Positions 190-49,902 of a DNA stretch of 62,505 nucleotides are shown here, in pieces. This DNA is from an uncultured Candidatus Saccharibacteria bacterium. GTDB lineage: Bacteria; Patescibacteriota; Minisyncoccia; Phycocordibacterales; UBA2163. Positions within the stretch are counted from its first letter, which is position 1; each line of letters opens with the position of its first letter. Both the position numbers and the translations under genes were made by a program. Below the pieces are notes generated by a model that saw nothing but the letters and a program-made list of their open reading frames with translations, had not been told where the DNA came from and ran no database searches. The stretch spans positions 1 to 62,505 of the forward strand of contig CAZVGL010000004.1 of the NCBI GenBank assembly GCA_964626705.1. Direction: 5' to 3'.

Positions 190-1779
190 ATGAGTATCAA
201 ACCAAAATATTTTCTTTATGCTCGCAAGAGTACGGAGGATGATAATAAGCAGATTATGAGTATTGAAGCGCAGCTATTTGAATTGCGAGAGTTTGCTCGC
301 AAAGAAAATCTTGAAATTCTTGAGGAATTTCAAGAGTCGAAAAGCGCAAAGACACCCGGTCGCTTAGTGTTTGGTGAAATGATGGCAAAAGTTGAGGAAA
401 TGGGTAATGTTGGTATTTTAGCGTGGCATCCAGACCGTCTTGCGCGTAATAGTGTAGACGGCGGGAGAATAATCTATGCAGTGGATCAGAGAAATATTGT
501 GTCTTTACGCTTTCCGACATTTTGGTTTGAACCGACACCGCAGGGGTTATTTATGTTGCAAGTGGCGTTTGGTCAATCTAAGTATTATTCGGATAATCTC
601 GTGCAGAATATAAAGCGGGGGATGCGCCAAAAAGTTCGTCGGGGAGAGTGGCTTGGTTTTGCTCCTCCAGGGTATATTAATAATCCGCGCACTCGGAATA
701 TCGAACCTCATCCAACTCATTCGCGTATTATCAAGAGAGCTTTTGAGGAATATGCAAAAGGCAAGCACACACTTATTTCCTTGGCGAACTTTTTGGCGGA
801 ACATGGCATGAGCACAAGGGAGAACACGCCACTTGCCAAATGTTCCATCAAAATCATACTGACAAACAAGGCGTATTTAGGGTTTGTAAAATATCATGGA
901 GAATTGTTTGAAGGAACATTTGCGCCAATTATTACCCCGAAATTATTTGAAGCCGTGCAGAAAGTTCTCGCAACAAGAGGAAAACCGCGTAAATCTAAAG
1001 TGGGGCATAATTTTCCTTTCGTTGGACTTTTTTGTTGTGTAGAGTGTGGGAGTATGATTACTGCTCAATGGGCAACTAATCGTTTTGGCACAAAATATAG
1101 ATATTATCGTTGCACAAAAAAGAAAGGAAAATGCTCCCAAGGATATTTACGCGAGGATAGGCTTGTCGCTCAAATACAGGAACGGCTTCAAAAAATTTCT
1201 CTTTGCGATGAGAGTATTGATAAGATGCTCAAGCAAGTTGATAAATGGGAAAAAGAAAACAATCTCTCATCGCAAACTTGCGTTCAAAATCTTGCTGATA
1301 AAATCAAAGTGAGTGAAGATCGCTTAGAAAAGTTAGTCAGTTCATATTTAGATGGTGATATACCGAAAGAGATTTATATACAAAAGAAAGAGGGGAATAT
1401 GCGCTCCACACTCGCTTTGAAACAGAAACAGAAAGATTTGGAACGCAAGGGTAACAATTGGGTCGAACCCCTGCGGAATTGGATTTTAGATATGAAACTA
1501 GCCAATTTTTTATCCTCATCCACAGATTTTCACGAAATCAGCTCCTTCGTCAAAAAAGTTGGAACGAACCCTACGGTTCGTGACAAATCAGCCCACTTCG
1601 GCGCGTGCCCGCCGTCTGAATTATCCTTTGCTTACGCTACGAAATCGCCGTTTTCCCATCCGTTTTTGCCAAATGATTTAGCGAATAATTTTCACGATTT
1701 GGACGAAGTTAATTTTGGTGCTCTCAGTAGGAATCGAACCTACATCGCATCTTCCGCAAAGATGTATTCTATCCGTTGA
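190..1779 (+). CDS. Large serine recombinase (resolvase + recombinase + Zn-ribbon + coiled coil)
   Basis: YARKS catalytic motif, DRLARN, CxxC (CVEC), YYRC; C-terminal tail is encoded by the inverted repeat and antisense tRNA. Confidence 0.92.
   Translation: MSIKPKYFLYARKSTEDDNKQIMSIEAQLFELREFARKENLEILEEFQESKSAKTPGRLVFGEMMAKVEEMGNVGILAWHPDRLARNSVDGGRIIYAVDQRNIVSLRFPTFWFEPTPQGLFMLQVAFGQSKYYSDNLVQNIKRGMRQKVRRGEWLGFAPPGYINNPRTRNIEPHPTHSRIIKRAFEEYAKGKHTLISLANFLAEHGMSTRENTPLAKCSIKIILTNKAYLGFVKYHGELFEGTFAPIITPKLFEAVQKVLATRGKPRKSKVGHNFPFVGLFCCVECGSMITAQWATNRFGTKYRYYRCTKKKGKCSQGYLREDRLVAQIQERLQKISLCDESIDKMLKQVDKWEKENNLSSQTCVQNLADKIKVSEDRLEKLVSSYLDGDIPKEIYIQKKEGNMRSTLALKQKQKDLERKGNNWVEPLRNWILDMKLANFLSSSTDFHEISSFVKKVGTNPTVRDKSAHFGACPPSELSFAYATKSPFSHPFLPNDLANNFHDLDEVNFGALSRNRTYIASSAKMYSIR
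1583..1724 (-). repeat. 142-bp inverted repeat, right copy
   Basis: Reverse complement of 24..165; overlaps the last 9 nt of tRNA-Arg. Confidence 0.95.
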
Positions 1780-16987: not shown

Positions 16988-17413
16988 ATGGCAAAGAAAG
17001 TAGAAAAAAAATTAAAACTTCAAATAGAAGCAGGGAAAGCAAATCCTGCTCCTCCTGTGGGGCCTGCGCTTGGTCAGGCCGGTATTAATATTGGTGAATT
17101 TGTTACAAAGTTTAACGATGCAACAAAAGAGATGATGGGGGACATTATCCCTGTTGAGATATCTGTATATGAAGACAGAAGCTTTGACTTTGTACTTAAG
17201 ACTCCTCCAGCATCAAGACTTCTCTTAAAAGCACTTGGTATAAAAAAAGGTTCAGGTAAGAACTTAACAAGTAAGGTTGGAAAGGCTACAAAAGCGCAAC
17301 TTATAGATATAGCTACAAAAAAACTTCCAGACCTAAATACAAACGACCCAGAGCAGGGTGCTAAAGTGATAGCAGGTACAGCACGAAGTATGGGTATCGA
17401 AACTGACCTATAG
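16988..17413 (+). CDS. rplK: 50S ribosomal protein L11
   Basis: [23 protein letters not shown]. Confidence 0.98.
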
Positions 17414-18070
17414 TATAAAATCTCTCAAATCTTTTGAGGAAGATAACTGAGGGCATTCTATGTCCTCTTTTTCTTTGGGTACGTTTACTAGAATTGCGTT
17501 TATGCCAAGCTCTTTTGGTGCGAAGTAGTCAGAAGATGGTCTGTCGCCAATATAGAGAAACTCTTCAGGAGACACGTCTTTGTAAAACGACATCCATAGT
17601 TTGAAAGCACCTCCGTCTGACTTAGATGCTATCTCACCTGTAATGATATTTGAAAATATTTCCTTTGGAATGTTTAAGTACTCCATCTTTTGATATGCAT
17701 TGTTTTTGTCAGACCCTGTTATTAGGTCTATATTCCCATATTTTTCTTTTACATCTTTAAGAAGTTGCAAGATCTCTCCGTCAGGAGCCAAAAACTCAGC
17801 TATATCAGCATTCTCTAATGCTTCTTGCACTATATCTCCTGCATTAGGTATCTCAAGCTTTTGAAGGGTTTTTGTGCCTGACAGCCCACTACCGTCTTTG
17901 TACAGATCTTTAAAAAGCTCTTCTGCTTCTTGTAAGCTAACTCCTTTGTGTGCAGATATCTTTTTATATATGTAGCTCTGTATAGCCTCATCAATAGTTG
18001 GAGATTTGGGATACAGTGTTTGGTCTAGGTCAAAACCAATAACTTTAATTTTATTTTTATAAATAATCAT
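17408..18070 (-). CDS. HAD-superfamily phosphatase (nucleotidase-like)
   Basis: FDLDQTLY motif I, ITGS motif [11 protein letters not shown] motif IV. Confidence 0.88.
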
Positions 18071-18071
18071 T

Positions 18072-20471
18072 TTATTTGTATGCTATGTAGAACAGTGTAA
18101 GTGTTCCAAGCTTAGATTTCAACTCTTTTGCATGTTTACTTGTAATATAGTTACACATCTCTATATCTTTTGTTTTGTTAGATAGTGGTCTATTTGCAAA
18201 TACCGCTGTCGCATGGATCTTGTCTCCAAATATATTTGCTTGGAAGAATACAAGAGCATTACTCTGTGGGTCTGACTCACCTGCAACATAGTCTGAAAGC
18301 ACAGTGTTGTTGTGCATCACACCTTTTTCTTTTAAGTATGTTATAGCTCGCGCAACAGTGTCTACACCGTTTAGGTTTTCAAGTATATCAAGTATTTTAT
18401 TTTTAGGGCGTTTTGTTATTTTCTTAAGTTGTAAATGTTCGTATGCGACACCACCTGACTTTTTAGGTGTTTTTACATTTTTACCAACTAAGTATGGCCC
18501 TATAGCTTTGTCGTTCTTATGACTTAGTGGCTTTGACGGTTCGCCAAGTATCTTTTTTGTTTTCTGCTCCTCTGTAAGAAGAAGAATATTTGCTCTGTTT
18601 GAAAGCATAAACATATCCCCACCTTTAACTTTGAGAGATTTCTTAATAGTTGTTGTGTACGCATCATAAAGTCCAAATATATTTTCTGGATATGCGTTTA
18701 CGGTGTTGTGAGCACGTGCGATATGGAATGAGTGGAGTTTATTGTTCTTTATAAAAAATATATCGTGCGTAAGGCAAGGGTCATGTGTGAACTTTGTTAT
18801 ACCGGTTTCTTTTTCGACATAAGTGCCCATGTCTTGTGTTGGGTCAAAACGTTGTACTATTGTAGCTTTGTTTTTATCTGCTTTTAAAACTTTTATCGTG
18901 TTTTTAAGTTGATCAAAACCAAAGAAAGTTCGTGTTCTTTCCCCATAGCTGTATGAGCCGTCGCTGTCAAAACGCAAAAGCTGTTTTTTATATGCGTCAC
19001 GCATCTTTTTTGTAGAGTCCTCGCCTTGTTTATAGAGTTTAGGCATTGCCTTTAAAGCGTTCTCAGTATCTCTATATATAGCTAAAACAGAGGCTGTTCT
19101 GGCAGGCCCTTTCCATACATCTCCGTGCTCTTCGGTAATACCTTTTGTATATATCTGCTGAAGAACTGATTTGTGTACATCTAAGAAATTGTCGCCGTCT
19201 GCTATAACAAAAGGCAAGTTGCTAGTGTTTATTTGGAAGATATTTGAGAAGTCTTGTATGAAAGAATAATTCTTACTTGCAGCCACATATGCTCTGCCAA
19301 GCTGTGTCCCTATGTCCATCCTGTGTAGTATGTCCATTTCATAATCTTCGAATCTATTTAATTCTGCAAGCTTCTTTATTATAGAAGGAATACTTTTTGA
19401 TTGTAGTTCAAACACTTCGTCACACACATCAAACGCCATACACATACAAGAAACTTTTTTATCTTTTGTACTGATTTTATAATAATATTTTGTATCCACT
19501 TTTAAGCTCATGCTTGGTTCTAGGTGGATCTCCTTCTTGCCTATTATATTAGTGTTCTGTACAAGAGAAGGGATAGAGATATTATTTGCTATTTCTGTAC
19601 CAACACGCCCTATTTCTGCACCAAGAAGTATCTGATCTTCTACTTCAAGTAAAGATTTATCTTTTTCTAAAAACTTCATAAGGGAATACTCTAAAAGGAA
19701 TTCGTTTTTAGCTTTTATATAATATTTTTTATTATTGATAGCTATATCGAGACGGACTAGCCCATTCTCCGCTGTAACTTTAAAAGGAACTTTCTTTTTT
19801 GTCTTACTCTCACTTAATATTATTCTAGGTGGCTGTAGGTGCTGAAAATCTTTCGCATTAAGATATGGAATATTTTTCTTTTTATGTTTTATTTTCTGAA
19901 GTTTCTCTAAAAGTTCGTTAAGAGAGTCATAATAGATTTTCTTCTTACTATTTATTTTTATAAGTGTGTCATAAACTTCCTTAGAGACCTTTGGTTTTAA
20001 TGTTTTCAGATAAGAGTCTACTATTTTTTTACTGTCTTTGTTTTTTGAAGCAAATACAGGAAGTACGACTATGCTATCTTTAAAGGCATTAAATATTTGC
20101 TCAGATATATTTGGATATTGCGCACTTGCAGCGATACCGCCTTTTATGTAGTTGCCAGAGACACTCTTCTCAAAACCCTTTTGTATTGCTTGAAGCAAGT
20201 TTGTGCTTGGGGAGAATGTTATGGATTCTTCTGAGAACAGTATAAGATATCTAACAGTAGGGTGGGCGAGAGAGTTTATTATCATCCTTTCTGTGCCATC
20301 ACGGCTAACAATAAGGGATCCAAGTACGGAAACCTGTTTTCGGTATTTATTGTCTATTTCATTTAAAACCTGTCCTGAAGCAGTGGTGTTGGTACATATA
20401 CCTATTTCGCCACCACGTCCTTCGTTTGGTGTTAAAAGCAGAGCATCTATTACTGGGAAGTTTGTTTTCAT
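18072..20471 (-). CDS. Fusion: MtrA-like domain + two DUF4346-like domains + thymidylate-synthase domain + degenerate TS-like C-terminus
   Basis: GTERMIINSLAHPTVRYLIL (MtrA-like); GAEIGR and GTQLGRA...FIQD (DUF4346-like); YSYGER, DQL, DPCL, RAHN, YPEN (TS). Confidence 0.7.
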   Translation of the reverse strand: MKTNFPVIDALLLTPNEGRGGEIGICTNTTASGQVLNEIDNKYRKQVSVLGSLIVSRDGTERMIINSLAHPTVRYLILFSEESITFSPSTNLLQAIQKGFEKSVSGNYIKGGIAASAQYPNISEQIFNAFKDSIVVLPVFASKNKDSKKIVDSYLKTLKPKVSKEVYDTLIKINSKKKIYYDSLNELLEKLQKIKHKKKNIPYLNAKDFQHLQPPRIILSESKTKKKVPFKVTAENGLVRLDIAINNKKYYIKAKNEFLLEYSLMKFLEKDKSLLEVEDQILLGAEIGRVGTEIANNISIPSLVQNTNIIGKKEIHLEPSMSLKVDTKYYYKISTKDKKVSCMCMAFDVCDEVFELQSKSIPSIIKKLAELNRFEDYEMDILHRMDIGTQLGRAYVAASKNYSFIQDFSNIFQINTSNLPFVIADGDNFLDVHKSVLQQIYTKGITEEHGDVWKGPARTASVLAIYRDTENALKAMPKLYKQGEDSTKKMRDAYKKQLLRFDSDGSYSYGERTRTFFGFDQLKNTIKVLKADKNKATIVQRFDPTQDMGTYVEKETGITKFTHDPCLTHDIFFIKNNKLHSFHIARAHNTVNAYPENIFGLYDAYTTTIKKSLKVKGGDMFMLSNRANILLLTEEQKTKKILGEPSKPLSHKNDKAIGPYLVGKNVKTPKKSGGVAYEHLQLKKITKRPKNKILDILENLNGVDTVARAITYLKEKGVMHNNTVLSDYVAGESDPQSNALVFFQANIFGDKIHATAVFANRPLSNKTKDIEMCNYITSKHAKELKSKLGTLTLFYIAYK

Positions 20472-20475
20472 ATCT

Positions 20476-21357
20476 TTACCATTTTTTACTTGTCCAAACG
20501 TCTGATAAATATTCGTTCATATCTCTCTTTTCATAAACGTCAGTATCTTTAGCAAAAAGTAATAATTCTGGATTTATATTAAACTTACTCATCATCTCTG
20601 CTAAAAATTGTCTACAAGATCCACACATATGAGCCGGTTCATCTTTATGTTTTGTTGAAACAAGTCCTATGTGTGTTATCTCAGTATCTTTTTCCATAAG
20701 TGCAGATATAACAGCTGCCATCTCTGAGTGTACATTCATTCTCTTGTCAAAGCTTGAATACTGCCCACTAAAATAAATCTTACCGCTTTTTGTCATTACT
20801 GCCGTGCCATAGCCACTTGCTGAATCATATCTTGGAAGGTTTTTTTCTACGCCAAGCATGGCATATTTTTTTAACACACCTTTTATATCTAAATCCTTTT
20901 TAAGTTGTGCTTTATTAGACTGTGTTTCTGTACTAGAATCTATCTTCTTTAAAAAAGTCCGTTCAGGTTTATAGAAAGGAAATAAAGAAGAGACGTCATC
21001 TGCGCTAAAAAGTATATTTCCTTCTATATCTATCACAGTATATTTTATTTGTTGACCAGTTCTTCGTGCAAAGTCTATAAGTATTTTTATTATTATAGGT
21101 GACGCAGTTTCTGCTTTGTCATAAGTTTCAAGCATAGTAATGACACTTTCTATTTGGAAGTCATTGTTTTGCATTGCGCCCAAAAGCGCAACCTGTTCTG
21201 AGGGCATACTTAAAAGATTGGTGTCAGATCCTATGTGTGCACCAAGATAGCTCTGCCCGCTTTTTGAATATGCAATAGACGAACTTCTTTTGTCCTCTTC
21301 TTTTTTTATGATACACAAATTTAGTGTCTCTTTGAGTTTTTCTGTATCAAAATCCAT
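20476..21357 (-). CDS. Tandem cytidine-deaminase-fold protein (N-domain degenerate, C-domain intact)
   Basis: C-domain HSE...MCGSCRQ; N-domain has PSE and no CxxC. Confidence 0.82.
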   Translation of the reverse strand: MDFDTEKLKETLNLCIIKKEEDKRSSSIAYSKSGQSYLGAHIGSDTNLLSMPSEQVALLGAMQNNDFQIESVITMLETYDKAETASPIIIKILIDFARRTGQQIKYTVIDIEGNILFSADDVSSLFPFYKPERTFLKKIDSSTETQSNKAQLKKDLDIKGVLKKYAMLGVEKNLPRYDSASGYGTAVMTKSGKIYFSGQYSSFDKRMNVHSEMAAVISALMEKDTEITHIGLVSTKHKDEPAHMCGSCRQFLAEMMSKFNINPELLLFAKDTDVYEKRDMNEYLSDVWTSKKW

Positions 21358-21363
21358 ATTAAA

Positions 21364-22260
21364 TTAGTTAATTTCGGTTTTAGTACGAAGGCTACTTACT
21401 TTGAGCCCACCTTCTGTCCAGTCGTAGTGCATTACTTTTTTTATAAAGTCGTTAAAAAGATGAATCTTATCTCTTTCGATGCGTGGGTACATTTTCTCAG
21501 AGCGCTTGCTGGATAGTCTTATTGTCGGTCTAAATGGCACAGGAAAGGCATAATACGGCATAAGAGGTTTCTTTTCTGTCTCTATGAGTAAGACTTTTAT
21601 GGGCTTATTGAGTGTTTCTATGGCGTAGTCTATTCTGTGCATGCCGTCGCATACTATGTGGAATTTATGTTTTCCATTGTACTGCAGGCCGTAGTTTATA
21701 AGCGATGCATTTGAATGAAAAATATCAAGATGATTAATCTTACTTACTTCATCTACAAAGAATGAATTAAGATATCTTTTTGAAAGGTCGTGTAAGTTTC
21801 CAGCTGCGTCTTTTACAAAACGGTTTTTAAATCTGTTGGTTAATTTTTCCAAATCAAAAAAACCTTTTTTTAGATCATACGTATGAGTCTCTATTATAGG
21901 TGGTAAAACATGGAAATCACCCCTTCCTTCCCATTCGTATTCCACAGCTTCTTCAAGTCCGTTAATAGCAAGCCCTTCTTTTTCTAAAAATTTGTGAAGA
22001 GTTTTTATAACGTCTAACTGATTTTCATAAATTGTAGGTTGTGGAGAAAATAGTGGTTCTTTTTTTCCATTTACTTTAACAACAGGTGAGCCGCCCATTT
22101 TTTCTTGAGGGTATAATGTGGCGATAGAGATCTTTGCATTTTTGTACGGATACAATGCTCCACCATTTTTATCATAGAGTCCTCTAAACTTAACTTTCCT
22201 CAATACTTCTTGTAAGTCATTAAGAGCAACTGTCTTTTTTAGAGTCAGTTTATGTTTCAT
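21364..22260 (-). CDS. Hypothetical protein with ParB/sulfiredoxin-like motif
   Basis: LPPIIE...VCDGMHR followed by PYYAFP; start at 22260 or 22275. Confidence 0.6.
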   Translation of the reverse strand: MKHKLTLKKTVALNDLQEVLRKVKFRGLYDKNGGALYPYKNAKISIATLYPQEKMGGSPVVKVNGKKEPLFSPQPTIYENQLDVIKTLHKFLEKEGLAINGLEEAVEYEWEGRGDFHVLPPIIETHTYDLKKGFFDLEKLTNRFKNRFVKDAAGNLHDLSKRYLNSFFVDEVSKINHLDIFHSNASLINYGLQYNGKHKFHIVCDGMHRIDYAIETLNKPIKVLLIETEKKPLMPYYAFPVPFRPTIRLSSKRSEKMYPRIERDKIHLFNDFIKKVMHYDWTEGGLKVSSLRTKTEIN

Positions 22261-22348
22261 AATAAAAGTATACAATGTATTTATCTATATAGTAAGTTGA
22301 CTGTATTATGCAATATCAGCTTAATTTTTCATGATATAATACACTTGT

Positions 22349-22783
22349 ATGACATTAAAATTAAAAATAAAAAGACTATCAGGTGAAGCTAAGTTGCCAA
22401 ATTATCACTATGAAGGAGACGCTGCTTTAAATTTGTATTCTGTTGAGGATGTTTTATTAAAACCAAATGAACAAGTTAGTGTTAAAACAGGTATTGCTAT
22501 GATAATCCCTGAAGGACACACAGGGCTTATCTGGGATAGAAGTGGACTTTCAATAAAGCACGGTATTAAGACGCTTGGTGGAGTGATAGATGCTGGATAT
22601 CGTGGAGAAGTAGCTGTGGGGTTTATGAATATATCTAAAAATGATTATCAGATAGAAAAAGGTGATAAAATAGCGCAGATCATCATCCAAAGATTTGAAA
22701 ATGTTTATGTGGAAGAAATAGATGAGATTGAAGATAGGGATACGCATAGGGGAGAAAAAGGCTTCGGTAGCTCTGGCAAATAA
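22349..22783 (+). CDS. dut: Trimeric dUTP diphosphatase
   Basis: RSGLS, GVIDAGYRGEV, IAQ, RGEKGFGSSG. Confidence 0.95.
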   Translation: MTLKLKIKRLSGEAKLPNYHYEGDAALNLYSVEDVLLKPNEQVSVKTGIAMIIPEGHTGLIWDRSGLSIKHGIKTLGGVIDAGYRGEVAVGFMNISKNDYQIEKGDKIAQIIIQRFENVYVEEIDEIEDRDTHRGEKGFGSSGK

Positions 22784-24524: not shown

Positions 24525-27500
24525 ATGGAAAATAAAAACGAACAAAAAAACGAAATAGCTAAAAATGAGATAGCTCAGAAGGAGGAGGAAGTCTTGAAGT
24601 TTTGGGGTGAGAATCAGATTTTTAAGAAGTCTGATGAAAAAGAAGCGCCAAATGGCGAGTTTATTTTTTACGAAGGGCCACCTACTGCAAACGGTAAGCC
24701 AGGAATGCACCATATGGAAGCGCGAGCTTTTAAAGATGCAATACCTCGGTATAAAACTATGCAAGGTTTTCATGTGCGCAGAAAAGCTGGTTGGGACACA
24801 CATGGACTTCCTGTGGAGATACAGGTGGAGAAAGAACTTGAGCTACATTCTAAAAAAGATATTGAAGAATACGGTATAGCGAATTTTAATAAAAAATGTA
24901 AAGAAAGTGTTTGGAAATATGTAGACCTGTGGGAGAAGTTTACGGACAGAATAGGCTTCTGGCTTGATAAAGAAAATCCGTACATAACATACGAACCAGA
25001 GTATATGGAATCTGTGTGGAATGTTGTAAAGAAAGTTGATGATCAAAAACTTCTATATAAAGACTATAGAATAGTAAACTGGTGTCCTCGTTGTGGTACA
25101 GGGCTTTCGAGTCATGAGCTTGCACAAGGGTATCAGGAAGTCCACGACATGTCTGTTTACGTAAAATTTAAGGTTAAAAATAAAGAAAATACATATCTAC
25201 TTGCGTGGACTACTACACCCTGGACGCTTCCTGGGAATGTCGCGCTTGCAGTAGGAGAGAAAATTAAATACAAAATGCTTAAAGCAGATGGCGAGAATTT
25301 AATTCTAGCGGAAGATAGAGTAGAAGATGTAATGAAAGATAAGGAGTACGAGGTTGTGGAAGATCTGAGCGGTAAAGATTTGACAAAATATGAATACGAG
25401 CCTTTATATTCATATTTAGAAGATACATTACCAGAAAGCGAAACTAAAAAACTTAAAAATGCATATAAAGTATATGAAGCTGACTTTGTAAATACAGAAG
25501 ATGGTACAGGGATCGTGCATACTGCTGTGATGTATGGTGCAGATGACTTTATACTTGGTACAGAAAATGATTTGCCTAAACACCACATAGTTAATGAAGA
25601 CGGTAGGTTTATAAGTGGTACAGACTTCTTAGAAGGTAAAAAAGTAAGAGGTTCTAATGATGAGATAATAGAAGATTTAGAAAAGAAGGAAATCCTTTTT
25701 GATAAAGAGAGGATAAAGCATACATACCCGCATTGTTGGAGGTGTAAAACTGCGCTTATATACTATGCACGGGACTCTTGGTATATACGAATGTCAGATC
25801 TACGCGACAAACTTGTAAAAGAAAACAATACTATAAACTGGGAGCCAGAACATATAAAAGAAGGACGGTTTGGTGAGTGGGTAAGAGAGGTGAAAGACTG
25901 GGCGATCTCAAGAGAGAGGTATTGGGCTACACCACTTCCAGTCTGGCAAAATGATAAAGGAGAGAATACGGTAATCGGTAGTATAGAAGAGCTTAAAAAG
26001 TATACAAAGAAGAGTGGAAATAAGTATTTTGTAATGCGTCATGCAGAGGCAGAGAACAATACGCTAAGTGTAATAAGCTCTAAGGCAGATAACCCGCATC
26101 ATGTAACAGAGAAAGGAAAAGAACAGATGGTAGATGCTATCAAACAATTAAAGAAAGAAAAAATTGATTTAATAATCGCTTCTCCGTTTGTGAGAACACG
26201 TGAGACTGCAGAAATAGCTGCGGATGGTATTGGTATTGATAAAAGTCAGATAATATATGAACAAAGAATACAAGAGCTGGATGCGGGGGATCTTGAGGGG
26301 GTGAGTGTTGAGGAATATCATGCATACTTTGATTCTACTAAAGAATGTTTTGAAAAAGGGTGTCCAGGTGGTGAAAACTATGTACAGATAAAGAGTAGAA
26401 TGGGTAATTTTATTTATGATATAGAAAATAAATATAAAGGTAAAAATATTTTGATTGTTACACATGATGCACCAGGGTGGCTTTTAATTAATGCAGCGTA
26501 TGGATATAGTGGTGAAAAAGCTGTCGCACAGAGGAAGGATGACAAAGATCATTTTATTTTTAATGCAGAAATTAAAAAACTTAATTTTGTTCCACTACCA
26601 CATAATGAAAATTATGAACTTGATCTGCATCGGCCGTACATTGATGAAGTAGAGCTTGTAGATGAGAAGGGAAATAAACTTACAAGAGTGAAAGAGGTTA
26701 TGGACGTGTGGTTCGACTCTGGAGCGATGCCGTATGCACAAGACCATTATCCGTTTGAGAATAAAGAGCTTATAGAAGGAGGCGGCTACCCAGCTGATTT
26801 TATATCAGAAGCTATTGACCAGACTCGTGGATGGTTCTATACACTGCATGCTATCGGTGCCTTGATGTGCCGTGGGAAAGCATATAAGAATGTGATCTCA
26901 CTTGGACATATCTTAGATAAAAAAGGTAAGAAGATGTCTAAATCTGTAGGTAATGTAGTAGATCCGTGGGAAATGACAGATAAATACGGAGTAGATGCAT
27001 TGCGCTTCTGGATGTATACGGTGAACCAGCCAGGGGACTCCAAAAACTTTGAAGAGAGAAGTGTTGATGAGGTGGTAAAGAAGGTGTTTAATCTTTTGAA
27101 CAATATTGTTAAGTTCTATGAGCTTTATAGTATAAAAGAGCAAGTCTTTGATGATAAACATACGAAGAGTGGAAATGTGCTTGATGTATGGATACTTGCA
27201 AAACTTAATAAGCTAAAAGAAAATACAACAAAGAGTTTAGATGAATATCATTTGTTTGAACCAGCACGCGAGGTCAGAGAGTTCATAGCAGACTTCTCAC
27301 AATGGTATGTTCGTCGTTCTCGCGATAGGTTTAAAACAACAGGAGGGGATAAAGAGTACGCGCTTGCGACTACTCGGTTTGTGCTTCTTGAGCTTTCAAA
27401 ACTTATGGCGCCGTTTACACCATTTATAGCAGAGCAGGTGTATCAGAAAGTGAGGAGTATTGATATGGCAGAGAGTGTGCACTTGGAAAGCTGGCCAGAA

Positions 27501-28049
27501 TTTGAAGTGAAAGACACAACAATACTTGACGATATGGAAAAAATAAGAAAAATAGCTTCGCTTGGGCTTGAGGCGCGAGCTAATGTAAATATAAAAGTAC
27601 GGCAACCCTTGGCTTCGCTTAAGTTAAAAACTGAAGGAGGAAAGCTGGACGATGGTTTATTGCAGTTAGTTAGGGATGAGGTGAATGTAAAAGAGATTTT
27701 GTTTGTCGCGGAAGAAGGTCTTTCCTCGGGTAGCGAAGCGGACGGAGGTGAGACCTTGGGGAGCGATATTGTTGAGCTAGATACAAACCTTACGCAAGAA
27801 CTTAAAGACGAGGGTGTCGTGCGTGAACTCACTCGTGCTATTCAAGGTGCAAGAAAAGTCGCAGAGCTTACCCCACAGGATTTTATAAACTTAGATGTCG
27901 AGACAGATAACAAAGGACAGTCCTTTGTAGAAAAGTTTGAAGAGCAAATAAAAACAGGAGCTCTTATAAAAGAAATCAGTTTCACCAAAACAGAAGGCGA
28001 CGAAATAAATGTAGATCCATATATATTCAAGTTTAAGGTAATAAAATAG
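24525..28049 (+). CDS. ileS: Isoleucine--tRNA ligase (type 2-like) with inserted histidine-phosphatase domain and in-frame repeat insertion
   Basis: GWDTHGLP, WTTTPWTLP, DWAISRERYW, KMSKS; RHA phosphatase insert at about 26019..26595. Confidence 0.96.
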   Translation: MENKNEQKNEIAKNEIAQKEEEVLKFWGENQIFKKSDEKEAPNGEFIFYEGPPTANGKPGMHHMEARAFKDAIPRYKTMQGFHVRRKAGWDTHGLPVEIQVEKELELHSKKDIEEYGIANFNKKCKESVWKYVDLWEKFTDRIGFWLDKENPYITYEPEYMESVWNVVKKVDDQKLLYKDYRIVNWCPRCGTGLSSHELAQGYQEVHDMSVYVKFKVKNKENTYLLAWTTTPWTLPGNVALAVGEKIKYKMLKADGENLILAEDRVEDVMKDKEYEVVEDLSGKDLTKYEYEPLYSYLEDTLPESETKKLKNAYKVYEADFVNTEDGTGIVHTAVMYGADDFILGTENDLPKHHIVNEDGRFISGTDFLEGKKVRGSNDEIIEDLEKKEILFDKERIKHTYPHCWRCKTALIYYARDSWYIRMSDLRDKLVKENNTINWEPEHIKEGRFGEWVREVKDWAISRERYWATPLPVWQNDKGENTVIGSIEELKKYTKKSGNKYFVMRHAEAENNTLSVISSKADNPHHVTEKGKEQMVDAIKQLKKEKIDLIIASPFVRTRETAEIAADGIGIDKSQIIYEQRIQELDAGDLEGVSVEEYHAYFDSTKECFEKGCPGGENYVQIKSRMGNFIYDIENKYKGKNILIVTHDAPGWLLINAAYGYSGEKAVAQRKDDKDHFIFNAEIKKLNFVPLPHNENYELDLHRPYIDEVELVDEKGNKLTRVKEVMDVWFDSGAMPYAQDHYPFENKELIEGGGYPADFISEAIDQTRGWFYTLHAIGALMCRGKAYKNVISLGHILDKKGKKMSKSVGNVVDPWEMTDKYGVDALRFWMYTVNQPGDSKNFEERSVDEVVKKVFNLLNNIVKFYELYSIKEQVFDDKHTKSGNVLDVWILAKLNKLKENTTKSLDEYHLFEPAREVREFIADFSQWYVRRSRDRFKTTGGDKEYALATTRFVLLELSKLMAPFTPFIAEQVYQKVRSIDMAESVHLESWPEFEVKDTTILDDMEKIRKIASLGLEARANVNIKVRQPLASLKLKTEGGKLDDGLLQLVRDEVNVKEILFVAEEGLSSGSEADGGETLGSDIVELDTNLTQELKDEGVVRELTRAIQGARKVAELTPQDFINLDVETDNKGQSFVEKFEEQIKTGALIKEISFTKTEGDEINVDPYIFKFKVIK
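27708..27764 (-). repeat. Family B repeat inserted in frame in ileS
   Basis: 57 nt; reverse complement is near-identical to 59931..59985; encodes AEEGLSSGSEADGGETLGS. Confidence 0.85.
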
Positions 28050-43784: not shown

Positions 43785-46700
43785 ATGAGTATTATTACAA
43801 AAAGTAATATAGCTACTAAGATTGCTATAGGAGCTATTGCAGTTGCATTTGTTTTCGGACTTATGTTTTCAGCAACAGCACCAGCACAAGCAGCACTGAC
43901 AACAAGTCAGGTTGATGCGATCATTTCACTGCTACAGTCTTTCGGGGCTGACGCAGCAACGATCTCTAACGTGCAAACATCTTTAACAGGTGGAACACCT
44001 ACAACACCGTCAGGTGGTACATCAACGGCTAGCGTATGTCCATACACATGGTCAGTTAGTCTTGACTCAGGAAGCGAAGGGGCAGACGTTATGGCTCTTC
44101 AGAAATTCCTAAACTCTGATTCAGCAACAATGATTGCTTCGTCAGGAATTGGTTCAGCTGGAAACGAAACAGATTACTTCGGTGGTCTTACAAAGTCAGC
44201 TGTTGTTAAATTCCAGAACAAATATGCTTCTGAAGTTCTAACACCAGTTGGACTATCAGCAGGAACTGGATACTTTGGTTCTTCATCAAGAGCAAAAGCA
44301 AATTCACTTTGTGCTACAGCTTCAACACCAACAACACCAACTACTCCAACAACACCTACAACTCCAGCAACTGGAACAGGATTGTCAGTAGTAGGAGGAT
44401 CACAGCCAACAGCAACTCTAGCTCCTGATTCAGCAGCTAGAGTACCCTTTACAACATTTGTTGTAACAGCGGGCTCAGACGGAGATGTTGTTATGAACAG
44501 TGTTTCTGTTGAAAGAACTGGACTTGCTCCAGATGCAGTTTTCTCAGGAATAGTACTTCTTGATCAAGACGGAGTACAAAGAGGAACTTCAAAAACACTT
44601 AATTCAAACCATCAGGCAACTATTGGTGAGAAAATAACAATACCAGCAGGTACATCAAGAACATTTACAGTAGCTGGAAACATGGCATCAGATAACTCAA
44701 CTCGAGATGGTACTGTTGCAGCACTTTCAGTAGTTGGAATTAATACTTCAGCAGCTGTTTCAGGTTCACTACCAATAGTTGGTACATCACAGACAATCAA
44801 TGCATCACTTGCTATTGGTTCAGTAACTATGGGAATATCTTCATTTGATCCAAACTCTGCACAATCAAAAGAGATTGGAACAACAGGAGTACGAATCGCA
44901 GGTATTACTGTAACAGCAGGTTCAGCAGAAGAGATCCGAATCAATAACATTCGATGGAACCAAACAGGTTCAGCCGGAAGTTCAGATATTACTAATGTAG
45001 TAACTACTGTTAACGGAACAGAATACACAACAACAGTTTCTTCAGATGGTAAATTCTACACAGCGCTTCTAGGTTCAGGAGTTGTTGTCGGAAAAGGAAA
45101 TCTTGTAGATATCTACGTAAAAGCAGATATCATCGGAGGTTCAGCACGAACAGTTATCTTCGATATCGACAAGACAACAGACCTAAACATTACAGGTGAA
45201 ACATTTGGTTACGGTATTACACCACCAGCAGGATCAGGTTCTGCAGGAACTACAAGTTCAGCATTCCTATCCGGAACACCATGGTTTGACAACGCAACAC
45301 TTACAATTAGCGCAGGTTCTGTAACAGCAATTCAGAAATCATCTACAGTTGCCGCACAGAACATCGCAGTTAATGTCGCAAATCAGCCACTTGGAGGATT
45401 TGAAACAGACATCAAGGGTGAAGCGATCACTGTTTCAGGAATGGTACTTACAGTAGCTACATCATCAGGAAGTGGTGGTACAGGTACACGTCTATTGACT
45501 AACGTAACAATTGTTGACCAAAACGGTACAGTTGTTGCAGGTCCAGTTGACGCAACTGACCCAACAATTACTGATGGTATACAAACTATTACTTTCACAG
45601 ATTCAGTTACAATACCTGTAGGCAAAATGGTCTACACAGTTAAAGGTAAGGTAGCTTCAACTGAAGGTAATGCTACAACGTACGTTACATCAGTTACACC
45701 TTCAGGATGGACATCACCAGTTGGAGACACAACAGGAGATTCAATCACAATTTCAACTGGCGTATTTACACTTAACACAATGACTGTTAAATCAGCAGCT
45801 CTTGATATAAGTATTTCATCAAATCCAGTAGCACAGAACATTACAGCAGGAGCGCAAGATTTCACTTATGCAAATCTTCAGCTTGATGCATCATCTTCAG
45901 GAGAAGATGTAAGGTTCTCATCTATTCCACTTGCGATGACATTCGCAAACTTGACAGTTACTGAAGTAACAGGATGTCAATTGTTTGATGGAACAACAGC
46001 TTTGAACACAGGTTCAAACGTTGTTACAGGAGCAGGAATTAGTGACGCTGACAATACATTTACATTTGACCAAACACTTATTGTTCCAAAAGGAACAATC
46101 AAGACACTTGCTCTTAAATGTGACCTTTCAAGCGGAACAGCAGCTAATGACTCTCTTTCATGGGGAATCAACGCAGCTCCATCTATTACAGTTACTGGTG
46201 TAACTTCATCAAACTCTGTAACAGAAACTATTACAGCTTCAGCAGGTCAGACTATGACTGTTGCAGCTGTAACAGTAGTTGCTTCAAAAGACTCTTCAAG
46301 TCCTTCTTACACAATAGTGTCAGCAGGTTCAACAGGAGTAAATGCAGGAGTTATCAAATTCCGAGCAGCAAACGAAGCAGTTACTCTTCAAAGAGTAGGT
46401 CTGTCACTTACAAACACAGCTTCATCATCATCTAGTGACCTAGTACAGGTATCTCTATATGATGGATTAACTAAGGTTGGTACAGCTACATTTACAGGTA
46501 CTAACACTAAAGCAACATCAACACTTGACGTGCCTGTAACACTTCCAAAAGACACAGACAAAACATTGACAGTTAAACTTGATCTAGCAGATATTGGTAC
46601 TTCAAAAACAGGTACACAAGGTGCTAAGATCGCAGTTGACATTGACACAAACAGTACAAACACACAGGGAGTTGGACAAGAATCAGGAACAACAGTTAAT

Positions 46701-48474: not shown

Positions 48475-49140
48475 ATGAGAAGAAAAACTCCTTTTTTTGT
48501 TGGGCAGGTATATCATATCTATAACAGAGGTAATGATAAAAAGATAATTTTTAATGGCGACTATGATTATAAGCGATTTATGCTTTTGCTTTATCTTTGT
48601 AATAGCACGACACCTGTGGATATAAGAAGGCTATTAGAAAAAGGACTGTCTTTTGTTGAACTGTTTGATCTTGATAGAGGGGATACTTTGGTTGATATAG
48701 GTGGTTTTTGTGCAATGCCGAACCATTTTCACTTACTACTTCATGAAAAAATGGAGAATGGTATAAGTCAGTTTATGAAAAAACTACTCACTTCTTATTC
48801 CATGTATTTCAATGCAAAAAATGAAAGAAAAGGAGCTCTTTTTGAGGGGCCTTTTAGAGATAAACATATTGATACTGATTCATATCTAAATTGGGTATTT
48901 TCATATATTCATTTGAATCCTGTTAAATTAATCGATAATGATTGGAAAGAAAAGGGAATATCTGACCCTGTAATTGTTAAAAATTTTATAGATAGTTATA
49001 AGTATTCAAGTTATTATGATTATTTTTTAGGGAATAGGCCTGAAAATTCTGTTTTGAGTAAGGATGCTTTTCCGGGAGATTTTTCGCAATTAGATGATTT
49101 TGAAGATTTAATACAGGAATTTAGAAAAGATAATTACTAA
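48475..49140 (+). mobile_element. REP-associated tyrosine transposase (RAYT; Y1 HUH, IS200-like)
   Basis: YHIYNRG, MPNHFHLLL (HUH), YIHLNPVK (catalytic Tyr); flanked by REP palindromes. Confidence 0.9.
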
Positions 49141-49393: not shown

Positions 49394-49900
49394 ATGAAAA
49401 AACTATTTAGCAAAAGAAGATTAAAGATCGTGGGGATTGTATTTGGAGCTTTGGTTTTGATTTATTTTGTGCTTTTTAGTCCGCAACTTATAGACTCTTT
49501 TAAGGCAGAAAAAGCTGCAAGAAATTATGATAAATGGGAAGAGTCTATTAAAGAACAATATAGAAATGATACATATGGCGGAGATACTCCGGAGGAGACA
49601 TGGGCTATGTTTATAGAAGCTCTTGAAAATAGGAATTTTGATCTCGCGGTTAAGTATTTTGATCTAAATGAACAGGAGAAGTGGGGAAGTGGATTAACTA
49701 AGATAATAGAAGAGAGGGGTATTGAAATATTTTTGTCAGAATTAAGAACTTTTAGAAAGGGCGAAAAAGAAAGCATCGGTGAAGATAAAAGGTATTATTT
49801 TTTTAGCTACTTTGATAAAGAATTTGATCGTGTACTCTCTGCTCAGGTTGTATTCTTCTTCAATCCATACTCTAAAGTTTGGAAGATATTAGGATTATAA
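49394..49900 (+). CDS. Membrane-anchored hypothetical protein (possibly NTF2-like)
   Basis: TM then DTYGGDTPEETWAMFIEALE. Confidence 0.7.
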   Translation: MKKLFSKRRLKIVGIVFGALVLIYFVLFSPQLIDSFKAEKAARNYDKWEESIKEQYRNDTYGGDTPEETWAMFIEALENRNFDLAVKYFDLNEQEKWGSGLTKIIEERGIEIFLSELRTFRKGEKESIGEDKRYYFFSYFDKEFDRVLSAQVVFFFNPYSKVWKILGL

Positions 49901-49902
49901 AC

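What the first reader, a model, noticed from the sequence alone, without database searches (positions are those of the whole stretch)
18072..20471. 799-aa TS fusion with altered active-site residues and a methanogen-type MtrA-like domain
Seen: N-terminal segment GTERMIINSLAHPTVRYLIL...QYPNISEQIFNAF resembles MtrA (GIEKVIANIISNPNIRFL) but lacks the cobamide-ligating His; two DUF4346-like modules follow. The TS domain keeps the catalytic Cys (DPCL) and the dUMP-specifying Asn (YPEN, E. coli N177 equivalent), but the RSxD motif reads RAHN, replacing the conserved Ser and Asp. A second, Cys-less TS-like remnant ends the protein. Inference: altered cofactor or substrate, or an intramolecular pseudo-dimer.
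Basis: partly seen in the sequence, partly recalled or inferred. Interest (0 to 1): 0.7.

Follow-up and report, generated by a model that had tools for sequence, protein, structure and literature searches.

The report
Single-chain pseudo-dimeric thymidylate synthase relative
This gene encodes an 800-residue enzyme of ultra-small bacteria and archaea: a thymidylate-synthase core with altered cofactor- and sugar-phosphate-binding residues, fused to a dead copy of itself and to three accessory domains, and always sitting in the same four-gene pyrimidine operon, which suggests an undescribed way of making or modifying thymidylate.

Summary
ORF 18072-20471 (-) encodes 799 aa with five parts: an MtrA-like Rossmann domain lacking the cobalt ligand (His84->Phe86, Glu54->Ser56), two DUF4346 modules, a TS domain, and a truncated Cys-less TS fold.

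In gapless register with E. coli ThyA, the TS domain keeps Cys146, Arg166, Asn177 and Tyr94. It changes Ser167->Ala, Asp169->Asn (RAHN), Leu143->His and His207/Tyr209->Asn/Leu, and it lacks the Arg126/127 pair. The dead copy carries an invariant His-Asn-Asn loop where the partner subunit's Arg pair would lie. That makes a single-chain pseudo-dimer the likeliest arrangement.

RAHN and HNN are invariant in all 49 full-length homologues from species genomes, which are Patescibacteria and DPANN archaea. The gene is third in a cassette: ParB/Srx-like (ParB-CE), tandem cytidine deaminase, fusion, HAD phosphatase. This order holds in 43/44 and 46/47 testable loci, often beside dUTPase and SHMT.

MtrA-TS-DUF4346 fusions form a wider family. 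Canonical members (RSxD, RR, H..Y) sit with dCMP deaminase, SHMT and FolD. Asn-type members sit with ParB-CE.

Best guess (about 0.45): a non-canonical thymidylate synthase. Rivals are a flavin-dependent 5-hydroxylase, a hydroxymethylase and a corrinoid-dependent methylase. No literature was found. I rate it a new variant of a known kind.

The parts
18072..20471 (-). Whole 799-aa ORF (stop included): MtrA-like, DUF4346 x2, TS, dead TS copy
19872..20354 (-). MtrA-like Rossmann domain (aa 40-200). The cobalt ligand is lost: Phe86 (20214-20216) replaces His84 and Ser56 (20304-20306) replaces Glu54. R57, D58, E61, R62, N66, H70, E82 and F86 are invariant.
19572..19829 (-). DUF4346-like module 1 (aa 215-300)
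   Evidence: hhalign against DUF4346 of the 490-aa fusions: probability 63%, E 7e-5. Secondary structure is beta3-alpha2, as in module 2.
19242..19514 (-). DUF4346 module 2 (aa 320-410), with invariant H383, R384 and D386
   Evidence: hhalign probability 96.6%, E 6e-10; Pfam PF14251 significant at the same place in distant relatives
18522..19238 (-). Catalytic TS domain (aa 412-650), archaeal small-TS type
18774..18776 (-). Cys566, equivalent to the E. coli Cys146 nucleophile. It is preceded by the invariant His563-Asp564-Pro565 (His563 at the Leu143 position).
18705..18716 (-). Arg586-Ala587-His588-Asn589, equivalent to Arg166-Ser167-Cys168-Asp169 (RSxD read as RAHN). Invariant in 37 plus 49 homologues.
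18681..18686 (-). Glu596-Asn597. Asn597 is equivalent to Asn177, the uracil selector. Glu596 replaces Phe176.
18582..18590 (-). Asn628-Ile629-Leu630 at the place of His207-Leu-Tyr209, the binders of the deoxyribose 3'-OH
18075..18515 (-). C-terminal truncated TS fold (aa 653-799). It has no Cys (Gln736 at that place) and no RSxD.
18306..18314 (-). His720-Asn721-Asn722 in the dead copy, aligned to Arg126-Arg127-Ile128 of ThyA. Invariant in bacteria and archaea.
21364..22275 (-). Operon gene 1: ParB/Srx-like 'ParB-CE' protein, 303 aa, with CDG.HR, PYYAFP and ERDK.HL motifs conserved
20476..21357 (-). Operon gene 2: tandem cytidine-deaminase-like protein, 293 aa. The C-terminal half keeps H210-x-E212 and C244-G-x-C247-R-Q-F. 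The N-terminal half is degenerate.
17408..18070 (-). Operon gene 4: HAD phosphatase resembling pyrimidine 5'-nucleotidases, with an intact DxDxT motif (GFDLDQTLY)
22349..22783 (+). dUTPase, transcribed divergently from the operon across a 73-bp spacer

Best explanation
The protein is a non-canonical, single-chain member of the small ('archaeal-type') thymidylate-synthase clade.

Shown here:
- The TS domain (aa 412-650) keeps the chemistry-defining residues: the Cys566 nucleophile, Arg586, the uracil-selecting Asn597 and the Tyr509-Gly motif.
- The C-terminal domain (aa 653-799) is a degenerate copy of the TS core.
- The N-terminal domains are a His-less MtrA-like Rossmann domain and two DUF4346 modules. 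These are the same modules found fused to canonical small TS domains in CPR and DPANN.
- The gene is the third of a tightly packed, nearly universal cassette: ParB/Srx-like (ParB-CE), cytidine-deaminase-like, fusion, HAD phosphatase. dUTPase (a dUMP supplier) and SHMT (a methylene-tetrahydrofolate supplier) are frequent neighbours.

Inferred:
- The dead copy takes the place of the second subunit of the obligate TS dimer. It inserts its invariant His720-Asn721-Asn722 loop where the partner's Arg126'/Arg127' bind the substrate phosphate. The enzyme would then work as a monomer with one active site.
- Cys566 adds to C6 of a uracil (deoxy)nucleotide produced by the deaminase/dUTPase branch, and a one-carbon unit is put on C5. 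The cassette would convert cytosine and uracil deoxynucleotides into thymidylate for organisms that cannot make nucleotides de novo.
- Asp169->Asn blocks opening of the imidazolidine ring in classical TS. Ser167, His207, Tyr209 and the Arg pair are also replaced. Cofactor activation and sugar-phosphate binding must therefore differ from ThyA.
- I take the accessory MtrA-like/DUF4346 block to hold or recycle the pterin, playing a DHFR-like or folate-retaining role. I take ParB-CE plus the HAD phosphatase to set the phosphorylation state of the substrate or product.
For: - Fold and residue register. The spacing Cys566-Arg586-Asn589-Asn597 equals Cys146-Arg166-Asp169-Asn177 without gaps.
- Family-wide invariance across 41-89% identity, in bacteria and archaea: R458, Y509, D520, Q521, D564-P-C-L567, RAHN, E596-N597, R626, N628, L630 and H720-N-N722.
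- The dead copy has a TS fold. It aligns in register with ThyA residues 90-215. In the sister 'T2' family this copy still shows an R-containing 'LSPRDP' version of the RR...WNP loop.
- Operon: ParB-CE and the CDA-like gene lie upstream in 43/44 loci with at least 2 kb of flank. HAD lies downstream in 46/47. dUTPase is present in 18/52 loci, SHMT in 13/52 and FolD in 3/52. Within loci having at least 5 kb upstream, dUTPase or SHMT occurs in 20/38. Gene spacings are 1, 4 and 6 nt.
- The deaminase and the HAD phosphatase keep their catalytic motifs.
- Canonical MtrA-TS-DUF4346 proteins (RSxD, RR, S.AH.Y) exist. One lies in an operon of dUTPase, dCMP deaminase, TS, SHMT and FolD with no DHFR. The accessory block is therefore compatible with folate-dependent TS, and it sits where a DHFR function is missing.
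- CPR genomes commonly carry glyA and folD (PMC11974145).
Against: - Asp169->Asn in classical TS does not allow opening of the methylene-THF imidazolidine ring (title of PDB 1bjg). Asn at this site is the published diagnostic of the flavin-dependent 5-hydroxy-dCMP synthases (PMC13326640).
- The window protein fails the curated cut-offs of TIGR03283 (59.8 vs 174.55 bits) and gives no Pfam PF00303 hit.
- The residues that hold the phosphate and the 3'-OH of dUMP are replaced, so the substrate may not be dUMP.
- A phosphatase in the same operon is not needed for plain dTMP synthesis.
- No function is known for ParB-CE, DUF4346 or the His-less MtrA-like domain, so the DHFR-like role is pure inference.
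- I could not check whether the genomes carrying it also have thyA, thyX or folA. None lies within +/-10 kb in 52 loci.
- Pseudo-dimer packing was not measured, because no coordinates were available.
Confidence: 0.45

Rival explanations
1. Flavin-dependent pyrimidine C5-hydroxylase. As in phage AfhB and RB69 gp48, the folate site would bind a reduced flavin. Cys566 activates the uracil nucleotide and a flavin hydroperoxide hydroxylates C5, giving 5-hydroxy-(d)UMP. The N-terminal Rossmann-like block would bind or reduce the flavin.
For: - Asp169->Asn is invariant here, and it is the diagnostic residue of the 5-hydroxy-dCMP synthases (PMC13326640).
- The top PDB fold match is AfhB, 9iqu and 9iqc with FAD.
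- The same D->N change arose separately in the 490-aa clade, which suggests a selected change of cofactor chemistry.
Against: - The Foldseek ranking does not discriminate: E 1.5e-8 vs 3e-8 and equal TMq. The higher TMt only reflects the shorter target.
- The phage enzymes have N177D and L143E. Here Asn597 is kept and position 143 is His.
- SHMT is a recurrent neighbour, which points to a folate one-carbon donor.
- Many of these lineages are thought to be anaerobic fermenters (my own knowledge), and the reaction needs O2.
- No known flavin-binding motif was found.
Confidence: 0.15
2. dUMP hydroxymethylase, or another non-methyl C5 transferase, in a cellular base-modification module. The TS-like enzyme would make 5-hydroxymethyl-dUMP from methylene-THF without hydride transfer, so no DHFR is needed. 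ParB-CE would act as the kinase or NTPase for the new nucleotide. The HAD phosphatase, deaminase and dUTPase would reshape the pool, as in phages SPO1 and T4.
For: - The gene set parallels phage base-replacement modules (my own knowledge of T4 gp42/gp1/gp56/cd and SPO1): TS homologue, deaminase, nucleotidase, nucleotide-binding ParB/Srx-like enzyme and dUTPase.
- A polar residue (His, or E/K/D in some members) sits at the Leu143 position, where hydroxymethylases carry an acid.
- The SHMT linkage fits.
- No DHFR is nearby.
Against: - Small archaeal TS with fully canonical residues also have D/E at the Leu143 position, so that residue does not discriminate.
- Hydroxymethylation also needs imidazolidine ring opening, which D169N should block (1bjg).
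- I know of no report of modified thymine in CPR or DPANN DNA, and none turned up in the paper searches run here, although no search was aimed at that question.
- The kinase role of ParB-CE is a guess.
Confidence: 0.12
3. Corrinoid-dependent thymidylate synthase. The MtrA-like domain would bind a cobamide His-off and relay a methyl group (from methyl-THF) to the Cys-activated uracil, so no iminium and no Asp169 are needed.
For: - Homology to the cobalamin-binding MtrA.
- Asp169 is dispensable in such a scheme.
- DUF4346 and MtrA-like domains are also associated in Pfam naming with pterin-binding (methyltransferase/DHPS-like) domains (name of PF14251).
Against: - Both members of the Co-ligand relay are lost (His84->Phe86, Glu54->Ser56). 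They are also lost in every TS-fused MtrA-like domain examined, including those fused to canonical TS.
- The same accessory block accompanies canonical folate-type TS.
- No cobamide uptake or remethylation genes lie in the neighbourhood.
Confidence: 0.05
4. The enzyme works on a substrate other than a 5'-monophosphate deoxynucleotide, for example deoxyuridine/uridine, UMP or a di/triphosphate. ParB-CE and the phosphatase would act before or after it. One possible route is dCMP -> dC -> dU -> dT -> dTMP.
For: - All four side chains that define dUMP's phosphate and 3'-OH pocket are replaced: Ser167, Arg126'/127' and His207/Tyr209.
- The deaminase is of the nucleoside (cytidine deaminase, CG.CRQF) type rather than the dCMP-deaminase type.
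- A phosphatase is always present.
- In one relative, ParB-CE is fused to a metallophosphoesterase.
Against: - Arg586 (Arg166) and Arg458 (probable Arg21) are kept, so some phosphate binding is likely.
- No nucleoside-level TS is known.
- This overlaps the main explanation rather than excluding it.
Confidence: 0.13

Closest known systems
Small archaeal-type thymidylate synthase (NCBIfam TIGR03283 thy_syn_methano; about 200-220 aa)
   Same: It is the best sequence relative of the TS domain (E 2.6e-16). Both lack the ThyA segment holding Trp80/Trp83. Both share YxYG.R, DQ, PCL and the Asn177 equivalent.
   Different: Those proteins keep RS[HN]D, the RR pair and S.AH.Y, and they are stand-alone. 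The window protein scores 59.8 bits against a cut-off of 174.55, reads RAHN, has lost RR and H..Y, and is fused to four other domains.
'D490' MtrA-like-TS-DUF4346 proteins of DPANN/CPR (about 470-520 aa, database-annotated 'thymidylate synthase')
   Same: The same three domain kinds occur, including an MtrA-like domain without His84. They come from the same kinds of organisms.
   Different: The domain order is MtrA-TS-DUF4346 with no dead TS copy. The TS residues are canonical. One lies in an operon with dCMP deaminase, SHMT and FolD rather than with ParB-CE and HAD.
E. coli/L. casei ThyA (EC 2.1.1.45)
   Same: Shared fold. The Cys146, Arg166, Asn177 and Tyr94 equivalents are in gapless register.
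   Different: S167A, D169N, L143H, H147L, H207N, Y209L and F176E. The Arg126/127 pair and Trp80/83 are absent. The likely arrangement is a pseudo-dimer instead of a homodimer. There is no profile hit to any PDB TS at E<=0.1.
Phage flavin-dependent 5-hydroxy-dCMP synthases (HY126 AfhB, PDB 9iqu/9iqc; RB69 gp48, DLP3 gp80)
   Same: TS fold with the catalytic Cys and the diagnostic Asp169->Asn. Top Foldseek match.
   Different: The phage enzymes have N177D (dCMP) and L143E and are single-domain. Here Asn177 is kept, position 143 is His, and SHMT is a neighbour. Flavin binding is untested.
Bifunctional DHFR-TS of protozoa and plants
   Same: TS is fused to another domain of the thymidylate cycle. 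The idea that the N-terminal block recycles the pterin is modelled on it.
   Different: There is no DHFR (PF00186) domain here. The accessory fold is MtrA-like/DUF4346, and its activity is unknown.
MtrA, the cobalamin subunit of methyl-H4MPT:CoM methyltransferase (PDB 5laa, 8q3v)
   Same: Rossmann-type fold and the motif G..E....N....NP.(I/V)R(F/Y)L(I/V)L.
   Different: His84 and Glu54 are replaced. There is no membrane anchor. The domain is fused to TS, and its organisms are not methanogens.

Membership tests
Thymidylate synthase ThyA (EC 2.1.1.45, Pfam PF00303) | TS alpha/beta fold | tested here: met
   AF2 model: 397 PDB matches at E<=1e-3, and the 50 listed are all TS-family
Thymidylate synthase ThyA (EC 2.1.1.45, Pfam PF00303) | Catalytic Cys in a P-C motif (Cys146) | tested here: met
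   Cys566 in the invariant HDPCL
Thymidylate synthase ThyA (EC 2.1.1.45, Pfam PF00303) | R-S-x-D motif: Arg166, Ser167 and Asp169 (Asp needed to open the methylene-THF ring) | tested here: not met
   R586-A587-H588-N589. The Arg is kept; Ser->Ala and Asp->Asn. Invariant in 37 plus 49 homologues. Title of 1bjg.
Thymidylate synthase ThyA (EC 2.1.1.45, Pfam PF00303) | Asn177 selecting uracil | tested here: met
   Asn597, invariant
Thymidylate synthase ThyA (EC 2.1.1.45, Pfam PF00303) | Arg126'/Arg127' from the partner subunit, and His207/Tyr209 binding the sugar | tested here: not met
   K535/A536 in the TS domain. H720-N721-N722 in the dead copy. N628/L630 replace H207/Y209.
Thymidylate synthase ThyA (EC 2.1.1.45, Pfam PF00303) | Curated profile score | tested here: not met
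   No PF00303 hit for the window protein; 2 of 37 relatives hit it, best E 3.6e-5. TIGR03283: 59.8 vs 174.55 bits.
Thymidylate synthase ThyA (EC 2.1.1.45, Pfam PF00303) | dUMP + methylene-THF -> dTMP + dihydrofolate activity | not testable with these tools
   Needs an enzyme assay or complementation
MtrA (Pfam PF04208), cobalamin-binding subunit | Sequence/profile similarity to the MtrA Rossmann domain | tested here: inconclusive
   The window protein scores 14.4 bits against a cut-off of 25. The family profile hits PDB MtrA at E 2e-3. 22/37 relatives hit it, best E 4.7e-6. Homology is likely; membership by cut-off is not met.
MtrA (Pfam PF04208), cobalamin-binding subunit | His84 cobalt ligand hydrogen-bonded to Glu54 | tested here: not met
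   Phe86 and Ser56 at those positions (PMC4915002)
DUF4346 (Pfam PF14251, PterinBD-DUF4346) | Profile similarity | tested here: met
   Module 2: hhalign 96.6%, E 6e-10 against DUF4346 of relatives that pass Pfam's cut-off. The window protein alone gives only E 0.48. Module 1: 63%, E 7e-5.
Flavin-dependent 5-hydroxy-dCMP synthase (AfhB / RB69 gp48 type) | Asp169->Asn | tested here: met
   Asn589
Flavin-dependent 5-hydroxy-dCMP synthase (AfhB / RB69 gp48 type) | Asn177->Asp (dCMP) and Leu143->Glu | tested here: not met
   Asn597 is kept and His563 is at position 143
Flavin-dependent 5-hydroxy-dCMP synthase (AfhB / RB69 gp48 type) | Bound flavin and O2-dependent hydroxylation | not testable with these tools
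   Needs purified protein
Bifunctional DHFR-TS | DHFR domain (PF00186) | tested here: not met
   No DHFR hit in the protein. No E. coli FolA-like sequence in the window or within +/-10 kb in 52 loci.

The most novel reading that the evidence does not exclude
The cassette would be a cellular counterpart of phage base-replacement modules. The Asn-type TS enzyme would put a non-methyl group (hydroxyl or hydroxymethyl) on C5 of dUMP. ParB-CE, the phosphatase, the deaminase and dUTPase would channel the pool. Many Patescibacteria and DPANN archaea would then carry a modified thymine analogue in their DNA, or export such a nucleoside.
Probability: 0.08. Interest if true: 0.95.

Novelty: new variant of a known kind. 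Interest (0 to 1): 0.72.

Why it matters
Patescibacteria and DPANN archaea form a large share of microbial diversity, and they depend on salvaged nucleotides. This about 800-aa protein is annotated only as 'hypothetical' or, by transfer, 'thymidylate synthase'. It is conserved from bacteria to archaea together with three uncharacterised partner enzymes.

If it is their thymidylate synthase, three things follow:
- It works although it carries the Asp169->Asn change that inactivates classical TS.
- It is the first single-chain pseudo-dimeric TS.
- Its fused MtrA-like/DUF4346 block is a candidate for the missing pterin-recycling step.

Each of these points can be tested directly.

If it is not their thymidylate synthase, it marks an undescribed pyrimidine C5-modification pathway in cells.

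Either way it gives a first functional handle on three unknowns: DUF4346, ParB-CE and the His-less MtrA-like domains. It also warns that 'thyA' calls in CPR/DPANN metabolic reconstructions may rest on this atypical protein.

Tried and rejected
- Single-sequence and profile searches of PDB sequences found no TS at E<=0.1. Only a marginal 68-residue match to Cryptosporidium DHFR-TS appeared, at E 0.4. The residue register was therefore taken from gapless motif spacing and MAFFT alignments.
- The DUF4346 profile finds nothing in the PDB. ParB-CE finds nothing in the PDB or in PHROGs, and its homologues are all unnamed.
- Literature searches gave nothing relevant: 'DUF4346' had 0 papers, 'ParB-CE' returned only unrelated ParB-centromere/ParB-Cerulean hits, and MtrA+TS searches found nothing on this fusion.
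- Cobamide binding through His84 is rejected, because both His84 and Glu54 are lost.
- The higher fold rank of AfhB over ThyA is rejected as evidence, because the E-values and TMq are equivalent. The BFVD search added only generic viral TS hits.
- tblastn for ThyA, ThyX and FolA found nothing in the window or in 52 loci.
- The supplement of the CPR folate paper lists thyA/thyX/folA counts, but the table of thyA contexts was not held.
- No RNA-seq run holds the gene.
- The pseudoenzyme idea is rejected, because the nucleophile and about 40 polar residues are invariant across two domains of life.


Full report
**1. Observation**

The window is a typical Patescibacteria chromosome segment. It carries secE-nusG-rplK, ArgRS, IleRS, RecO, RecA and FtsK, and its G+C is about 36%.

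The protein is not an oddity of one genome. More than 120 full-length homologues of 51-65% identity were found, all about 800 aa. They are named 'hypothetical protein' or, in JGI, 'thymidylate synthase'. A scan of one genome per species found 52 loci. Most are in Patescibacteria. Ten are in DPANN archaea (Woesearchaeota, Nanoarchaeia, Iainarchaeum) at 41-46% identity over the full length.

**2. Anatomy**

An AlphaFold2 model built on 37 sequences is confident (pLDDT 84.9, pTM 0.79). There are five parts.

(a) aa about 40-200: an MtrA-like Rossmann domain.
- The family profile hits MtrA chains 5laa and 8q3v at E about 2e-3.
- NCBIfam's MtrA subfamily gives E 3.5e-5.
- 22 of 37 members hit Pfam MtrA, best E 4.7e-6.
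- The cobalt ligand His84 and its hydrogen-bond partner Glu54 (PMC4915002) align to Phe86 and Ser56. Phe86 is invariant in the 49 genome homologues; position 56 is Ser, Asn or Thr, never Glu.

(b, c) Two beta3-alpha2 modules.
- The second (aa about 320-410) is a DUF4346: hhalign 96.6%, E 6e-10.
- The first (aa about 215-300) is probably one too: 63%, E 7e-5.

(d) aa 412-650: a TS domain.
- TIGR03283 gives E 2.6e-16, and PHROG thymidylate synthase gives E 9e-9.
- There are 397 PDB fold matches at E<=1e-3, and the 50 listed are all TS-family structures.

(e) aa 653-799: modelled alone (pLDDT 84.6), this part returns almost only TS structures, at E about 3e-4 and rmsd about 3 A over about 100 columns.
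- It aligns in register with ThyA residues about 90-215 and with the protein's own TS domain.
- It has no Cys and no RSxD.

**3. Active site**

The spacing Cys566-(20)-Arg586-(3)-Asn589-(8)-Asn597 equals Cys146-Arg166-Asp169-Asn177 of E. coli ThyA without any gap.

Kept:
- Cys146
- Arg166
- Asn177
- Tyr94 (Tyr509)
- the DQ motif
- a probable Arg21 (Arg458)

Changed:
- Ser167->Ala
- Cys168->His
- Asp169->Asn
- Leu143->His
- His147->Leu
- Phe176->Glu
- His207->Asn
- Tyr209->Leu
- Arg126/Arg127->Lys/Ala

The Trp80/Trp83 segment is missing. It is also missing in all small archaeal-type TS, so this loss is not specific to the family.

In the dead copy, the loop that aligns to Arg126-Arg127 is His720-Asn721-Asn722. 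In the sister 'T2' family the same loop still reads R....LSPRDP, which is close to the TS consensus.

Across 49 full-length homologues from bacteria and archaea, the following are all invariant: RAHN, HNN, D564-P-C-L567 (His563 is Lys in four archaeal members), E596-N597, R626/N628/L630, and the N-terminal R57-D58, E61-R62, N66, H70, E82 and F86. H383-R384-D386 in DUF4346 module 2 is nearly invariant, with one archaeal exception each at positions 384 and 386.

Such conservation argues for a working enzyme whose dead copy contributes to the active site. In all TS structures the partner subunit supplies the Arg pair. The simplest reading is therefore a single-chain pseudo-dimer with one active site.

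**4. Survey of relatives**

A profile of the TS domain was searched against 1.84 billion representative proteins. It found 273 at E<=1e-3 but only 15 at E<=1e-30, so the family is compact. Residue tabulation, Pfam scans and a rough NJ tree give five classes.

| Class | Size | Residues | Architecture |
|---|---|---|---|
| Small stand-alone archaeal-type TS | 200-220 aa | RS[HNQ]D, RR, S.AH.Y: canonical | single domain |
| 'D490' | 470-520 aa | canonical, as above | MtrA-like-TS-DUF4346 |
| 'N490' | 470-520 aa | R[TVAS]HN, no His207/Tyr209 | same as D490 |
| 'T2' | 810-880 aa | R[SA]HD and S.NNYR | same as the window protein |
| Window family | about 800 aa | always RAHN | MtrA-like, DUF4346 x2, TS, dead TS copy |

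None of the fused MtrA-like domains examined has His84. In the NJ tree the RAHN-800 clade and the N490 clade are separate, so Asp->Asn arose at least twice (rough method).

**5. Context**

The gene is third in a cassette whose genes are spaced by 6, 4 and 1 nt.
- ParB/Srx-like 'ParB-CE' (303 aa; CDG.HR, PYYAFP and ERDK.HL conserved).
- A tandem cytidine-deaminase-like protein. Its C-terminal half keeps H-x-E and CG.CRQF, the nucleoside-deaminase signature.
- The fusion.
- A HAD phosphatase with intact DxDxT, whose best NCBIfam hits include the pyrimidine 5'-nucleotidase equivalog TIGR01993.

In the 52 species loci:
- ParB-CE and the deaminase are upstream in 43/44 loci with enough flank.
- HAD is downstream in 46/47.
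- The DPANN loci have the same cassette.
- dUTPase is adjacent in 18 loci, SHMT in 13 and FolD in 3.

In the window, dUTPase is divergent across 73 bp. No ThyA, ThyX or FolA was detected within +/-10 kb.

The relatives show a telling pattern.
- A canonical D490 lies in an operon of dUTPase, dCMP deaminase, TS, SHMT and FolD with no DHFR.
- N490 proteins lie with HAD, ParB-CE and NrdR, or with ParB-CE and a deaminase, near a Metallophos-ParB-CE fusion.
- T2 has ParB-CE upstream.
- Two other N490 loci showed no partner; one of them is a short contig.

ParB-CE plus a phosphatase therefore accompanies the non-canonical TS classes specifically.

**6. Mechanism**

Shown:
- The enzyme belongs to the TS superfamily and keeps the nucleophile and the uracil selector.
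- It sits in a pyrimidine operon next to suppliers of dUMP and methylene-THF.

Inferred:
- It performs Cys566-dependent C5 chemistry on a uracil nucleotide.
- I commit to one-carbon transfer giving thymidylate as the most likely outcome (about 0.45). The reasons are the SHMT/dUTPase linkage, the housekeeping-like distribution, and the fact that the same accessory block accompanies canonical TS in a DHFR-less thymidylate operon. That last point suggests the MtrA-like/DUF4346 block holds or recycles the pterin.

Against this:
- Asp169->Asn prevents imidazolidine ring opening in classical TS (title of 1bjg).
- It is the published marker of the flavin-dependent 5-hydroxy-dCMP synthases (PMC13326640).
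- The residues that grip dUMP's phosphate and 3'-OH are replaced.
- The operon always includes a phosphatase.

Hence the rivals:
- a flavin-dependent 5-hydroxylase (0.15);
- a hydroxymethylase in a base-modification module like those of phages (0.12);
- a different phosphorylation state of the substrate (0.13, overlapping with the main view);
- a corrinoid-dependent methyl relay (0.05, weakened by the loss of His84 and Glu54).

**7. Comparison and novelty**

The protein fails defining features of several families.
- ThyA: RSxD, the Arg pair, His207/Tyr209 and the curated scores.
- MtrA: the His84/Glu54 relay.
- The phage hydroxylases: N177D and L143E.

It should therefore not be filed as a plain member of any of them. 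It works most like a TS.

The domain combination MtrA+TS+DUF4346 is visible in databases, but I found no paper on it, on DUF4346 or on ParB-CE. The following appear undescribed:
- the invariant RAHN;
- the dead-copy pseudo-dimer with its HNN loop;
- the four-gene cassette;
- the spread across CPR bacteria and DPANN archaea.

I rate it a new variant of a known kind, with interest 0.72.

**8. Limits**

- I had no coordinates, so domain packing is inferred.
- There was no whole-genome census of thyA, thyX and folA.
- There are no expression data.
The ThyA numbering reproduces the known residue numbers, which supports its accuracy.
- The NJ tree is crude.

Noticed in passing
window 24525-28049 (+): The isoleucyl-tRNA synthetase (1174 aa) has a histidine-phosphatase (His_Phos_1) domain at aa 502-664, inserted between two tRNA-synt_1 stretches. 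Related CPR loci L001 and L007 show the same architecture.
   Followed up: no
L048, L049, L052, L054, L055, L056, L058, L061, L063, L064: The full 800-aa architecture also occurs in DPANN archaea at 41-46% identity. In most of these loci the ParB-CE/deaminase/HAD cassette is present too. This points to transfer between ultra-small bacteria and archaea.
   Followed up: partly
L010 3689-9741: A canonical MtrA-TS-DUF4346 protein (519 aa; RSQD, RG at the Arg126/127 positions, H..Y) lies in an operon: dUTPase, CTP_transf_like, HIT, dCMP deaminase, TS, SHMT, FolD. There is no DHFR gene in it.
   Followed up: partly
L012 6001-9536; L066 323-7476: Asn-type 490-aa TS fusions (RTHN) lie next to a HAD phosphatase, ParB-CE and an NrdR-like regulator (L012), or next to ParB-CE and a 377-aa deaminase (L066). 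L066 also has an 877-aa metallophosphoesterase-ParB-CE fusion.
   Followed up: partly
L004 2586-6729: A distant 877-aa relative has the same architecture but reads RSHD. It has a ParB-CE gene upstream but no deaminase or HAD. Its dead TS copy still has an Arg-containing 'DRRTDRVVLTPRDP' loop.
   Followed up: partly
window 190-1779 (+) and 48475-49140 (+): A large serine recombinase (Resolvase + Recombinase + Zn ribbon) and an IS200-like Y1 transposase.
   Followed up: no
window 43785-47381 (+) and 49879-53703 (+): Two giant ORFs of 1198 and 1274 aa. The first has no Pfam match and the second has only a lamin-tail domain.
   Followed up: no
window 17408-22275: The exact sequence of the operon is held by many 'seawater metagenome' DNA runs of 2020. 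No RNA run could be listed.
   Followed up: partly
window 20203-20505 (+) and 18304-18522 (+): Two ORFs of 100 and 72 aa lie antisense within the fusion gene. Nothing supports them, and they are most likely chance ORFs.
   Followed up: no
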